NCBI GenBank assembly: GCA_009914755.4
Contig: CP086569.2
Span: 1,216,001 to 1,280,000, forward strand
DNA: 64,000 nt
Source: the human T2T-CHM13v2.0 reference genome, Homo sapiens
Reading direction: 5' to 3'
The notes under the pieces: generated by a model
The model's input: the letters and a program-made list of their open reading frames with translations, nothing else
What the model was told of the DNA's origin: nothing
The model's database searches: none
Program-made: the position numbers and the translations under genes
Shown: positions 42,566-45,060 of the stretch, piece by piece
Layout of the letters: the number at the start of each line of letters is the position of its first letter
How positions within the stretch are numbered: position 1 is the stretch's first letter

Positions 42566-43439
42566 TCTCTCCTTTGTGTACTGAGAAAATGACAGTCCCC
42601 GGCTGTGGGTGGGCAGGAGTGACCCGCCCCAGAGAGCGGGGTCACCCTGGGTGACTCCTGGGTGCAGCTGTGAGCCCTGCCTGAGGCTTTTCCTGACCTC
42701 TGGGGAGGGCGGCTCAGCCTGGGGCTGGAGGTTGGGGCCAGCTCTGGAGGCTGGAGTGGCTGCTGGGCGGCGGGACGGGTGTCTCAGAAGTCACTGAGGC
42801 ATGGGTAGGTCTAACCTTGGGACATTGCTGTGGGGAGGGCTGTGGAGACCAAGCACATTCCTGAGGCTCTGCCAGGGCAGCGGGGGTGGACAGTGTCCCC
42901 TGAGGACCCAGGACCAAGCCAGGCTCGCTACAGGGGTCCTGGAATAGAGGACAGAGGCCAGGAGCGCTGTGGGTGCTGGGCAGGGGTGGGGAGTTTGCTG
43001 GGGAGCTGCGCCTTACAGACCTGTGTTTGTTTCCCAGCCTCAGCGAGGCCGGGCTGGACGGGGCCCTGGTGCTGGTTTTCAGTGCCTCAGCGAGGCCGGG
43101 ACCAGAGCTGCTATTTCCAGATGAGGCTGGCTCGCATCTGCTCTGGCCGGGGCTCCAGGCCTGAGCCCTGCAACACGGCGTTCCCTTTCCAAGTCTGCAA
43201 AGCCTGTCTTAGGGGAGAGAAGAAGTTTCCTTCCATGCGGGTGGGGACGGCTAACCATGTCCAGACACTGAGACCGGTGCTCTGTGTGCTCAGCCTTCAG
43301 CCTGCACTGGCTTGGTGGCTTGGTGACCCGCCAGCAGGGTGGTGCTGTCTGTGGGCTCTGCTCAAGCTCCTCTCAGAGCCAGGAGGATGCCCGCCTGCTT
43401 GGGCCTGGCTCCCAGGATGTGCTTGGCAAATGCTTCTGG

Positions 43440-44262
43440 GATGGATGGATGGATGGGTGAGTGGATAACGGATGGATGGATAATGGATAGATGGATAATG
43501 GATAGATGGATGGATGGATGGATGATGGATGGATGGATAATGAATGGGTGGGTGGATGGATGGATGTGCTCGATCGGCAAATGCTTCTGGAATGGATGGA
43601 TAATTGGATGGGTAATGGGTGGGTGGATGGATAATGGATGGATGGATGGATAATGGATGGATGGATGGATAATGGATAGATGGATGGATAATGTATAGAT
43701 GGATGGATGATGGATGGATGGATGGATAATGGGTGGATGGATGATGGATAATGGGTGGATGGATGAATAATGGATGCTTCTGGGATGGATGGATAATGAG
43801 TGGGTGGATGGATAATGAATGGGTGGATGGACAGATGGATAGATGGATATGTTTGCTTGGCAAATGATTCTAGAATGAATGGATGGATGGATAATGAATG
43901 GGTGGGTGGGTGGATGGATGGATGCACTCTGTTGGCAAATGCTTCTGGGATGGATGGATGGATAATGGATGGATAGATGGATAATCAATGAGTGGGTGGA
44001 TGGATGGATAGATGGATGTGTTTGCTTGGTAAATGATTCTGGAATGGATGGGTGGATGGATGGATGGATGCGCTCGATCGGCAAATGCTTCTGGAATGGA
44101 TGGATAATTGGATGGGTAATGGGTGGGTGGATGGATGCATGGATAGATGGATGTGCTCACTCAGCAAATGCTTCTGGAATGAATGGATGATGGATGGATG
44201 AATAGATGGATGGATGGATGAATGGATGGATGGATGGATGGATGAATGAATTGCTAATTGGG
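43440..44262 (+). repeat. 0.8-kb (GGAT)n/(GGATAAT)-type satellite punctuated by ggcaaatgcttctgg(g/a)atgg spacers
   Basis: GGATGGATGG runs with a recurrent non-repeat punctuation motif every 100-300 bp. The same 60-bp flank motif recurs inverted at 44915-44975. Confidence 0.9.
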
Positions 44263-44741
44263 GCTGTTTTTCCATACAGAGTGCTGCACGTGGGACTTAG
44301 CCTTGGACACTAACTCCTTTGCCCCTCGTATCTGGGAGGGAACAACACAGTTGCTATGCCTGACTAGGGCATGACCTGGGAGGCCTTTGGGGCCACACAG
44401 CCTCCTTGGGAAAGGAGGATCAGGTGGGCCTCACACCCAGGAATTGGAAGTGGGAGAGACAACAGCTGCTGGGTAGTGGGGGTAGAGCTGTGTCTCTCAC
44501 TGCCCTGCCCCTCCAAGGACCAAGAAGAAAGGAATGAGCCCCGATCCGCCTGCCAGGTACCCACCCATGAGAACCCCTTCTCTGCCAGCATCTGATAAAA
44601 TTACCTGCGTAGCTTTAGAGATCACTGCTGCCTGACCAGCAGCCGCTCTGCTGGAATCTGTCCAGAAAGCCCCTTGGGGCTCAGAAAAGTAGGTGGGTTA
44701 ATAATAGAAGTAGATGTGGGTTTTTTTGTTTGTGTGTTTAT

Positions 44742-45060
44742 TGAGACGGAGTCTTGCTCTGTGGCCCAGGCTGGAGTGCAGTGGCGTGATCTCGGCTCGC
44801 TGCAATCCCTGCCTCCCAGGTTCAAGCATGTCTTCTGCCTCAGCCTCCCAAGTAGCTGGGATAGCAAGTGTGCACCACCACGCCTGATTTTTGTATTTTT
44901 AGTAGAGATGGGGTTCCATCCATCCATTCCAGAAGCATTTGGCAAGCACATCCTGGGTGCCAGGCCCAAGCAGGCTGGTCTCAAACTCCTGACCTCAAGT
45001 GATCCGCCCACCTCGGCCTCCCAAAGTGCCGGGATGACAGCTGTGAGCCACCGCGCCCCG
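44742..45060 (-). mobile_element. Alu (antisense) carrying an internal roughly 60-bp non-Alu insert at 44915-44975
   Basis: Alu sequence on both sides. The insert ccatccatccattccagaagcatttggcaagcacatcctgggtgccaggcccaagcagg is the reverse complement of 43390-43450. Confidence 0.85.

What the first reader, a model, noticed from the sequence alone, without database searches (positions are those of the whole stretch)
43380..45060. GGAT satellite block bracketed by a roughly 60-bp inverted repeat, one copy embedded inside an Alu
The motif cctgcttgggcctggc(t/a)cccaggatgtgcttggcaaatgcttctgg(g/a)atggatggatgg at 43390-43450, which forms the 5' flank and first punctuation of the GGAT array, reappears as its reverse complement at 44915-44975. 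There it interrupts an otherwise normal antisense Alu. The two copies give the same peptide in opposite-strand ORFs (…[11 protein letters not shown](A/P)NASGMDGW…). Inverted copies flanking a satellite are the signature of a fold-back, template-switch or gene-conversion event. Together with the internal ggcaaatgcttctgg punctuation every 100-300 bp, they show the block is a higher-order repeat rather than a simple microsatellite.
Basis: seen in the sequence. Interest (0 to 1): 0.5.

Follow-up and report, generated by a model that had tools for sequence, protein, structure and literature searches.

The report
Old inverted copy-paste scar in an Alu
A 52-base piece of the sequence beside a GGAT repeat was copied backwards into an Alu element 1.5 kb away, by a microhomology-guided template switch in the ancestor of Old World monkeys and apes; it is a cleanly dated example of a known mutation type, with no sign of function.

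Summary
Window 43393-43451 recurs as its reverse complement at 44917-44975 (56/59 identical; none expected by chance), inside an antisense AluS. None of 31 other full-length Alus in the window carries it.

The window is human pseudoautosomal region 1. The site lies 3.5-5 kb upstream of SLC25A6, between SLC25A6 and ASMTL.

Orthologous loci date the event:
- Chimpanzee, orangutan and the Old World monkey Rhinopithecus all carry the insert.
- The New World monkeys Aotus and marmoset have the same Alu, at the same insertion site and target-site duplication, with native sequence.
- Both New World monkeys already have the donor beside the array.

So 52 nt replaced 10 nt of the Alu on the catarrhine stem. 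The junctions share 5 nt (GCCTG) and 2 nt (TG) with the donor. This is the signature of a microhomology-mediated switch-and-return template switch (FoSTeS/MMBIR-type templated insertion), with an unusually distant template (1,465 nt).

Pre-existing-homology gene conversion, fold-back duplication and reverse-transcriptase chimerism are not supported.

The GGAT block is a compound minisatellite. About 30 bp of its 5' flank was recruited into 50-280-bp units, and only in catarrhines. The shared "peptide" follows trivially from the duplication.

This is a new instance of a known kind, of low interest.

The parts
43393..43451 (+). Donor (template) tract: GCCTG microhomology (43393-43397), then the 52 copied nucleotides (43398-43449), then TG microhomology (43450-43451). 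It spans the unique 5' flank and the first 12 nt of the GGAT array.
   Evidence: It is syntenic and present in chimpanzee, orangutan, Aotus and marmoset.
43439..44248 (+). Compound GGAT/GGATAAT/GGGT array (about 810 bp). Six internal copies of about 30 bp derived from the 5' flank (..GTGCTYnnYRGCAAATGMTTCTGG..) give irregular units of 52-283 bp.
   Evidence: TRF periods 4, 15, 19, 79, 83 and 90. Punctuation positions. Cross-species counts.
43576..44177 (+). Span holding the six internal punctuation motifs, at 43576-43590, 43859-43873, 43934-43948, 44028-44042, 44080-44094 and 44163-44177.
   Evidence: 0-2 mismatches to GGCAAATGCTTCTGG. Absent from the New World monkey arrays.
44917..44975 (-). 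Templated insertion inside the Alu: CA (44917-44918, the complement of TG), then 52 nt copied in reverse complement (44919-44970), then CAGGC (44971-44975, the complement of GCCTG). It replaced the native 10 nt CCATGTTGGC.
   Evidence: Present in human, chimpanzee, orangutan and Rhinopithecus; absent from the orthologous Alu of Aotus and marmoset.
44720..45062 (-). Host element: a full-length AluS-type element in antisense orientation (T-rich tail 44720-44741, body 44742-45062).
44706..44718 (.). Left target-site duplication of the Alu, AGAAGTAGATGTG.
   Evidence: Read from the sequence. Aotus keeps AGAAACAGAGGTG at the same place.
45064..45076 (.). Right target-site duplication of the Alu, AGAAGCAGAGGTG (11/13 identical to the left copy).

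Best explanation
This is the scar of a single switch-and-return template switch, that is, a microhomology-mediated templated insertion of the FoSTeS/MMBIR or synthesis-dependent end-joining type. It happened in the germline of the catarrhine stem lineage, after the split from New World monkeys and before the Old World monkey/ape split.

A 3' DNA end inside an already resident AluS left its template. It annealed by microhomology to the opposite strand 1,465 nt away, at the border between unique sequence and a GGAT/GAAT microsatellite. It copied 52 nt there and returned to the Alu 10 nt further on. In four-point-model terms the switch points are 1 = 44918, 2 = 43449, 3 = 43398 and 4 = 44971. The junctions share TG (2 nt) and GCCTG (5 nt). 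The GCCTG junction lies within a patchy 15/18 match, CAGGAG..GA..CC.GCCTG.

The GGAT block is a separate, ordinary feature of the recombination-rich pseudoautosomal region. It began as a microsatellite. In catarrhines it recruited about 30 bp of its 5' flank into the repeat unit by unequal exchange or slippage and became an irregular minisatellite.

What is shown: the copy, its direction from donor to Alu, its boundaries and microhomologies, the ancestral empty state, and the phylogenetic window. What is inferred: that it was one event, and the enzymology. Stalled fork versus break repair cannot be told apart from sequence.
For: 1. Reverse-complement copy, 56/59 identical, unique to these two places in 64 kb.

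2. The tract is not Alu sequence. All 31 other full-length Alus in the window read GCCTG-GCCAAC-ATGG-TGAAACCC at that point.

3. Direction. The donor continues into unique sequence on one side and into the array on the other, and sits at the syntenic place in Aotus and marmoset. The copy is bounded on both sides by Alu sequence.

4. Empty site. Aotus has an antisense Alu with the same left flank and target-site duplication as the human one and reads GTTTCGCCGTGTTACCCAGGCTGG. Marmoset has the same Alu with GTTTTGCCATGTTGGCCAGGCTGG (alignment A1).

5. Filled site in human, chimpanzee, orangutan and Rhinopithecus roxellana.

6. Ancestral-state logic. All four inserts and both New World monkey donors carry A where the ape donors now have G (43440). 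Chimpanzee and orangutan donors and all inserts carry A where the human donor has T (43410). Chimpanzee and Rhinopithecus inserts keep G where the human insert has C. The original copy was therefore probably exact.

7. Orangutan (ATGAAACCCC) and Rhinopithecus (ATGACACCCC) both keep ATGA where human and chimpanzee read ATGGAACCCC. Reading ATGAAACCCC as the ancestral junction places the second junction at TG with no extra loss.

8. [quoted passage not shown]
Against: - The template is 1,465 nt away. Both published detection schemes deal only with short range (template within 100 bp, or tens of bp), so this is outside the range in which the class has been catalogued.
- The second junction has only 2 nt of perfect microhomology, which chance alone often gives.
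- Loss of the tract in New World monkeys, for example by Alu-Alu gene conversion, cannot be formally excluded. The New World monkey right flank is rearranged beyond AGAA.
- The donor could not be read in the Old World monkey, because locus L004 ends inside the array.
- Genome-wide copy number of the donor motif could not be checked, because no human genome search is available.
Confidence: 0.85

Rival explanations
1. End-joining capture of a free DNA fragment. A double-strand break in the Alu was repaired by ligating in an excised or extrachromosomal fragment from the array border, rather than by copying in place.
For: It gives the same end product. Microhomology at junctions is also typical of alternative end joining.
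Against: The donor is intact at its original place in all species examined, so a copy, not a cut-and-paste, is needed. A fragment would itself have to be produced by synthesis. The patchy 15/18 homology next to GCCTG fits annealing of a newly synthesised end better.
Confidence: 0.07
2. Non-allelic gene conversion between pre-existing inverted homologous sequences.
For: The two arms remain 95% identical after at least about 25-30 million years. The arms carry 4 inferred changes on the human lineage in 118 sites. About 8 would be expected at the local rate, but that figure was derived from the gap-inclusive 14% human-Rhinopithecus divergence and is therefore an overestimate. The difference is not significant.
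Against: The uninterrupted Alu in Aotus and marmoset shows no homologous tract to convert, only GCCTG and TG. The length changed by +42 nt. 59 nt is far below the tract and homology lengths normally needed.
Confidence: 0.03
3. Reverse-transcriptase template switching during Alu integration, so that the chimera was born with the Alu.
For: The first-strand cDNA of this Alu is the window's plus strand. Its template at the switch would be plus-strand sequence lying upstream on the very strand that primed reverse transcription (an inference from the orientation seen).
Against: The orthologous Alu exists without the tract in two New World monkeys, so the Alu predates the insertion. Known reverse-transcriptase jumps occur mostly at RNA 5' ends and do not return to the same RNA 10 nt on (from general knowledge, not tested here).
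Confidence: 0.02
4. The insertion is older than the platyrrhine/catarrhine split and was erased in New World monkeys by Alu-Alu gene conversion or precise deletion.
For: New World monkey Alus carry several lineage-specific changes: a deletion of about 15 bp (21 bp in Aotus) and an altered right flank after AGAA. The locus has therefore been rearranged there.
Against: It requires an exact restoration of native Alu sequence at both junctions in the common ancestor of Aotus and marmoset, which is less parsimonious than one gain. The catarrhine inserts differ from the inferred ancestral donor at no position, consistent with a single, later copy.
Confidence: 0.03

Closest known systems
MMB-TI: microhomology-mediated, MMBIR-linked templated insertions (Osia et al. 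2021, PMC8421209), in the FoSTeS/MMBIR framework
   Same: The inserted tract is an inverted copy of a template on the same chromosome. There is microhomology at both junctions and a small deletion at the acceptor. The event is germline and evolutionarily fixed; that paper reports about 100 germline events of at least 25 bp per person.
   Different: The template is 1,465 nt away, whereas the published search looks only within 100 bp. This event is dated by phylogeny to the catarrhine stem rather than seen as a polymorphism or somatic change.
Four-point model of short template-switch mutations (Loytynoja and Goldman 2017, PMC5453318)
   Same: The 1->4 fragment (10 nt of Alu) was replaced by the reverse complement of a 2->3 fragment (52 nt). 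One switch-and-return event explains what a linear alignment would show as a large insertion.
   Different: That model was deliberately restricted to short-range events of tens of bp, and repeat-masked sequence was filtered out. This event is long-range, lies in an Alu and takes its template from a microsatellite border, so it would have been excluded on both counts.
Polymerase-theta templated insertions at break-repair junctions (TMEJ / synthesis-dependent MMEJ, for example PMC2943611; the PMC7165422 title and abstract appeared)
   Same: Priming on microhomology and copying of nearby sequence, sometimes in inverted orientation, followed by re-annealing.
   Different: From general knowledge, those insertions are usually 3-30 nt and templated within tens of bp of the break. 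Here 52 nt were copied from 1.5 kb away. This was not tested here.
Pseudoautosomal minisatellites and compound microsatellite-derived VNTRs
   Same: A G-rich tetranucleotide core, recruitment of flanking unique sequence into a larger repeat unit, rapid lineage-specific turnover, and a location in human PAR1 between SLC25A6 and ASMTL.
   Different: In human the units are irregular (52-283 bp), with only 2-2.5 copies of any one period. No published name for this array was found.

Membership tests
Templated insertion by template switching (MMB-TI / four-point model) | The inserted tract is a reverse-complement copy of sequence nearby on the same chromosome. | tested here: met
   56/59 identity between 43393-43451 and the reverse complement of 44917-44975. 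The pair is unique in the window.
Templated insertion by template switching (MMB-TI / four-point model) | Microhomology between acceptor and template at both junctions. | tested here: met
   GCCTG (5 nt, within a 15/18 patchy match) and TG (2 nt), defined against 31 native Alus and the New World monkey orthologues. The 2-nt junction is weak on its own.
Templated insertion by template switching (MMB-TI / four-point model) | An ancestral acceptor without the tract exists, and the template existed before the event. | tested here: met
   The orthologous Alus of Aotus and marmoset are uninterrupted, and both species have the donor beside the array.
Templated insertion by template switching (MMB-TI / four-point model) | Template within short range (within 100 bp in MMBSearch; tens of bp in the four-point scan). 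| tested here: not met
   The distance is 1,465 nt.
Templated insertion by template switching (MMB-TI / four-point model) | Origin at a stalled or collapsed replication fork rather than in break repair. | not testable with these tools
   Sequence alone does not distinguish the two.
Non-allelic gene conversion | A pre-existing homologous tract at the acceptor. | tested here: not met
   The native Alu at the site shares only 5 + 2 nt with the donor.
Fold-back inverted duplication | A large duplicated segment joined head-to-head across a short spacer, usually with an adjacent deletion. | tested here: not met
   Only 52 nt are duplicated, with a 1.46-kb unique spacer. The flanks are collinear with those of other primates.
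Higher-order tandem repeat / minisatellite | Head-to-tail copies of a unit longer than the basic motif. | tested here: met
   Human: periods 79, 83 and 90 bp at 2.1-2.5 copies, and 7 punctuation motifs. Rhinopithecus: period 291 bp at 3.7 copies and 85% matches, with 83-87-bp sub-units.
Higher-order tandem repeat / minisatellite | Regular periodicity across the array. | tested here: inconclusive
   Human spacings are 151, 283, 75, 94, 52 and 83 bp, which is irregular. Rhinopithecus is regular.
Alu (AluS) retrotransposon, host of the copy | A dimeric body of about 280 bp, an A-rich tail and target-site duplications. | tested here: met
   Aligns to consensus positions 1-288. Tail 44720-44741. 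Target-site duplications 11/13 identical.
Reverse-transcriptase template-switch chimera | The foreign tract is present from the moment the element integrated. | tested here: not met
   The same Alu exists without the tract in Aotus and marmoset.

The most novel reading that the evidence does not exclude
The GGAT/GAAT array border acted as a replication obstacle or exposed single-stranded landing pad. In the catarrhine stem it provoked two things in one period of instability: recruitment of its 5' flank into the repeat unit (the birth of the punctuated minisatellite) and a kilobase-range inverted template switch into the neighbouring Alu. If so, the locus would be a phylogenetically dated natural example showing that switch-and-return template switching operates over at least 1.5 kb in the primate germline. 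That range is excluded by design from current genome-wide scans. A weaker variant is that the resulting 59-bp inverted repeat is kept because it pairs in a transcript upstream of SLC25A6; the predicted RNA duplex is -121.6 kcal/mol.
Probability: 0.1. Interest if true: 0.45.

Novelty: new member of a known kind. Interest (0 to 1): 0.25.

Why it matters
On its own it matters little. It is a neutral-looking, fixed mutation scar in intergenic pseudoautosomal DNA.

Its value is as a clean worked example, because donor, acceptor, empty site, both microhomologies and a phylogenetic date are all recoverable. It shows that reverse-complement templated insertions can draw on templates about 1.5 kb away and can hide inside repeat-masked sequence. 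Both properties are filtered out by the published genome-wide scans (PMC5453318, PMC8421209), so such scans probably undercount the class.

It also documents lineage-specific rebuilding of one microsatellite into different minisatellites. Catarrhines built units on the 5' flank, whereas New World monkeys built a 25-bp unit on the 3' flank.

Tried and rejected
1. Fetching orthologues through the ANT3 (SLC25A6) protein. The cluster representative from Saimiri turned out to be an intronless retrocopy at another locus (L001). The human/catarrhine sequence P0121 timed out without DNA at max_places=10 and gave only orangutan at max_places=1. I switched to short ASMTL C-terminal proteins to reach chimpanzee, Rhinopithecus, marmoset and Aotus.

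2. Rhinopithecus locus L004 ends inside the GGAT array, so the Old World monkey donor could not be read.

3. At first the marmoset Alu looked non-orthologous, with a 26-bp offset and a non-homologous right flank. Aotus resolved this: same left flank and target-site duplication as the human Alu.

4. The Rfam scan of 42000-47000 gave no family at gathering score.

5. A metagenome scan for the junction, in search of extra human haplotypes, gave 0 hits.

6. A literature search for a named minisatellite between SLC25A6 and ASMTL found nothing relevant.

7. A fuzzy regex over whole loci timed out and was replaced by BLAST.

8. Coding significance of the shared peptide was considered and rejected. 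It follows automatically from the inverted copy, and nothing supports a gene there.

9. An inversion polymorphism mediated by the arms was considered and rejected. None is seen in the three other catarrhine assemblies examined, and 59 nt is well below the usual homology requirement.
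Full report
**Where this is.** The window encodes all four exons of ADP/ATP translocase 3 (SLC25A6) on the minus strand, at 39897-39784, about 37499-36990, about 35186-35061 and 34529-34374. Every exon matches the human protein at 100%. The last exons of ASMTL lie on the minus strand at about 59.2 kb and 51.1-51.4 kb. The exact protein is recorded as ADT3_HUMAN and is shared by 15 catarrhines. 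IL3RA lies beyond SLC25A6 in the primate assemblies. The window is therefore human pseudoautosomal region 1. The finding lies 3.5-5 kb upstream of the SLC25A6 start codon, in the SLC25A6-ASMTL intergenic region. The window is extremely rich in Alus and tandem repeats.

**The observation.** The repeat finder reports arms 43390-43453 and 44915-44978, 64 nt and 94% complementary, 1461 nt apart. Trimmed to what is truly shared, 43393-43451 equals the reverse complement of 44917-44975 at 56 of 59 positions. A 29-nt core occurs only at these two places in 64 kb, with none expected in shuffles.

The second arm sits in an antisense AluS. Its body is 44742-45062, its T-rich tail 44720-44741, and its target-site duplications are AGAAGTAGATGTG (left) and AGAAGCAGAGGTG (right). 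I aligned it with 31 other full-length Alus from the same window. All of them read ..GAGACCAGCCTG-GCCAAC-ATGG-TGAAACCC.. at that point, and none carries the tract.

**Orthologues.** Using proteins of the neighbouring genes I fetched the orthologous interval from five primates. All loci are reversed relative to the window.

| Locus | Species |
|---|---|
| L002 | orangutan |
| L003 | chimpanzee |
| L004 | Rhinopithecus roxellana (Old World monkey) |
| L005 | marmoset |
| L006 | Aotus |

- The Alu-embedded copy is present in human, chimpanzee, orangutan and Rhinopithecus.
- Aotus has an antisense Alu preceded by ..GGGTTAATACAGAAACAGAGGTGG. This is the same flank and target-site duplication as human ..GGGTTAATAATAGAAGTAGATGTGG, so it is the same insertion.
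- The Aotus Alu reads GTTTCGCCGTGTTACCCAGGCTGG, which is native Alu sequence without the tract.
- Marmoset has the same Alu. It shares a deletion of about 15 bp (21 bp in Aotus) and the same right flank with Aotus, and has an additional 26-bp flank deletion. It is also uninterrupted.
- Both New World monkeys have the donor at the syntenic place next to the array, for example Aotus ..CTTGGGCCTCGCACCCAGGATGCGCTCGGCAAATGCTTCTGGAATGGATGAATG...

So the Alu predates the platyrrhine/catarrhine split, the donor predates the event, and the copy arose on the catarrhine stem. Published divergence dates put that roughly 25-45 million years ago; this is from my own knowledge and was not computed here.

**Anatomy of the event.** In Alu-sense orientation:

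| State | Sequence |
|---|---|
| Native Alu | ..CCAGCCTG / GCCAACATGG / TGAAACCCC.. |
| Ancestral filled state | ..CCAGCCTG / CTTGGGCCTGGCACCCAGGATGTGCTTGGCAAATGCTTCTGGAATGGATGGA / TGAAACCCC.. |
| Donor | ..CCCGCCTG / CTTGGG...GGATGGA / TGGATGG.. |

- Orangutan (ATGAAACCCC) and Rhinopithecus (ATGACACCCC) both keep ATGA where human and chimpanzee read ATGGAACCCC, so ATGAAACCCC is the most parsimonious ancestral junction.
- Fifty-two nucleotides replaced ten.
- The junctions share GCCTG (5 nt) and TG (2 nt) with the donor.
- Upstream of GCCTG the donor and the Alu also share a patchy CAGGAG..GA..CC match, 15 of 18 positions.

Ancestral-state comparison:

| Window position | State in the inserts | State in the donors | Inference |
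|---|---|---|---|
| 43440 | A in all four | A in both New World monkeys; G in the three apes | ape donors changed A to G after the copy |
| 43410 | A in all four | A in chimpanzee and orangutan; T in human | human donor changed A to T |
| partner of 43426 | G in chimpanzee and Rhinopithecus; C in human | G | human insert changed G to C |

The copy was therefore probably exact when made. The three present differences are later substitutions, one of them shared by the apes and two on the human lineage.

I infer four changes on the human lineage in 118 sites. This is not significantly fewer than expected from the local rate. A 551-bp block around the Alu shows 2.5%, 7.4% and 14% divergence from chimpanzee, orangutan and Rhinopithecus, gaps included.

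**Mechanism.** The event combines four features:
- a reverse-complement copy of nearby sequence;
- microhomology at both junctions;
- a small deletion at the acceptor;
- an intact donor.

This is the published signature of template-switch mutations. [quoted passage not shown] Here point 1 = 44918, point 2 = 43449, point 3 = 43398 and point 4 = 44971.

I think the more likely polarity is as follows. A nascent plus strand in the Alu (..GGGGTTTCA-3') landed in the GGAT repeat with minimal pairing. It copied leftwards out of the array into the unique flank, then re-annealed to the Alu through the longer GCCTG-plus-patchy homology. This polarity is inference. So is the choice between a stalled fork (FoSTeS/MMBIR) and break repair with primed synthesis.

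What departs from the catalogued class is distance. The template is 1,465 nt away, whereas both scans look only within 100 bp or a few tens of bp, and the four-point scan also discards repeat-masked sequence.

**Alternatives.**
- Classical gene conversion is contradicted, because the empty Alu has no homologous tract.
- Fold-back duplication is contradicted by the size (52 nt) and the 1.46-kb unique spacer.
- Reverse-transcriptase chimerism at integration is contradicted by the uninterrupted orthologous Alu in two New World monkeys.
- Loss of the tract in New World monkeys would require exact restoration of native Alu sequence and is less parsimonious.
- Capture of a free fragment cannot be separated from in-place copying, but it still needs a copy because the donor is intact.
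- A dispersed repeat family could not be tested genome-wide. Within the window and six loci the motif occurs only at orthologous positions.

**The array.** The human array (43439-44248) is built of GGAT, GGATAAT and GGGT motifs. It is interrupted six times by about 30 bp that derive from the 5' flank (..GGATGTGCTYnnYRGCAAATGMTTCTGGAATGG..), at spacings of 52-283 bp.

| Species | Array structure |
|---|---|
| human | 7 punctuation motifs, counting the copy in the 5' flank |
| chimpanzee | 6-7 punctuation motifs |
| orangutan | 6 punctuation motifs |
| Rhinopithecus | at least 11, with a clear 291-bp period (3.7 copies, 85% matches) made of sub-units of about 83-100 bp |
| Aotus | only the single flank copy; a 25-bp unit (13.8 copies) built on the 3' flank motif TTGCTAACTGGG |
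| marmoset | only the single flank copy; a short array of about 210-300 bp |

'Higher-order repeat rather than simple microsatellite' is therefore right, and it is a catarrhine innovation. The inverted copy must have come from the 5'-most unit, because only that unit carries CTGCTTGGGCCTGGCACCCAGG. The array rebuilding and the template switch both fall on the catarrhine stem. Whether they are causally linked is open.

**Other points.**
- The shared peptide (ORF 44622-45011 minus strand) is an arithmetical consequence of the duplication.
- No Rfam family matches 42-47 kb.
- The intervening 1.46 kb has the same orientation in chimpanzee, orangutan and Rhinopithecus.
- If co-transcribed, the arms could form a 59-bp duplex with three mismatches (-121.6 kcal/mol). 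The neighbouring inverted Alu pair (45007-45063 / 45941-45997) would also pair, and nothing suggests selection on either.

**Verdict.** This is a new, well-dated instance of a known mutational class, unusual only in template distance. Interest is low (0.25).

Noticed in passing
window 56012-56772: Seven tandem copies of a 105-bp unit derived from Alu consensus positions about 160-256, each about 80% identical to the consensus and nearly identical to one another. It is a minisatellite born from the right arm of an Alu (repeated ORF 55768-56874).
   Followed up: no
window 51366-55450: A second, much larger (about 4 kb) GGAT/GAAT-type array with strong GC skew (0.7-0.9). It appears to lie in the last intron of ASMTL and lacks the GGCAAATGCTTCTGG punctuation.
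   Followed up: partly
window 13849-16731: A tandem array of about 2.9 kb at 82% G+C, open in all six frames, with short 9-15-bp units that translate as PAH/PRS/PLT repeats.
   Followed up: no
window 19123-23912: Near-identical ORFs recur at 19123-19626, 20288-21115, 22619-23122 and 23085-23912. This indicates a tandem duplication or long-period repeat of several hundred bp to kb.
   Followed up: no
window 45328-45566: A 28/54-bp tandem repeat (CCCCTGAAAAGGGCTCCCCAAGAC..), 4-7 copies at 68-76% matches, immediately downstream of the Alu that carries the insertion.
   Followed up: no
L006 18641-19000 and L005 37291-37500: In New World monkeys the same microsatellite became a different minisatellite, a 25-bp unit built on the 3' flank motif TTGCTAACTGGG (13.8 copies in Aotus). 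Catarrhines built their unit on the 5' flank motif instead. These are independent lineage-specific unit recruitments at one locus.
   Followed up: partly
L005 / L006, right of the orthologous Alu (window equivalent about 45067 onward): In both New World monkeys, homology to human stops 4 nt after the Alu (after AGAA). The ASMTL-SLC25A6 interval is about 6 kb in marmoset, against about 11 kb in human. This points to a rearrangement or deletion abutting the Alu in one lineage.
   Followed up: partly
L004 (Rhinopithecus roxellana, CM017372.1): The gene model annotated as ASMT (352 aa) has AKAP17A upstream, as ASMT should. Its downstream flank, however, is the ASMTL-SLC25A6 intergenic region, and its C-terminus clusters with ASMTL. 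This is probably a chimeric model or a collapsed PAR assembly; there is a 100-N gap at 18808-18907.
   Followed up: no
L001 (Saimiri boliviensis, CM109023.1): The representative 'ADP/ATP translocase 3' protein of the 629-member cluster is encoded there by an intronless 897-bp ORF. It is a processed retrocopy with an intact reading frame, not the PAR gene.
   Followed up: no
window about 39896-44280, plus strand: The protein collection records a called 361-aa 'gene' on GRCh38 running divergently from the SLC25A6 start and ending at the GGAT array. There is a 382-aa counterpart in another assembly (GCA_028858825.2, species not identified here). Neither has a Pfam hit, and the model is probably spurious, read through CpG-island and repeat ORFs.
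   Followed up: no
window 44600-45150 against L003, L002 and L004: Local divergence is about twice what I recall as the genome-wide averages: 2.5% from chimpanzee, 7.4% from orangutan and 14% from Rhinopithecus, gaps included. This fits what I recall as fast evolution of PAR1.
   Followed up: no
window 62000-64000: About 2 kb of imperfect GT/CA-rich repeat (ORFs made of C, V, H and T codons on both strands) with an AT skew of 0.58.
   Followed up: no
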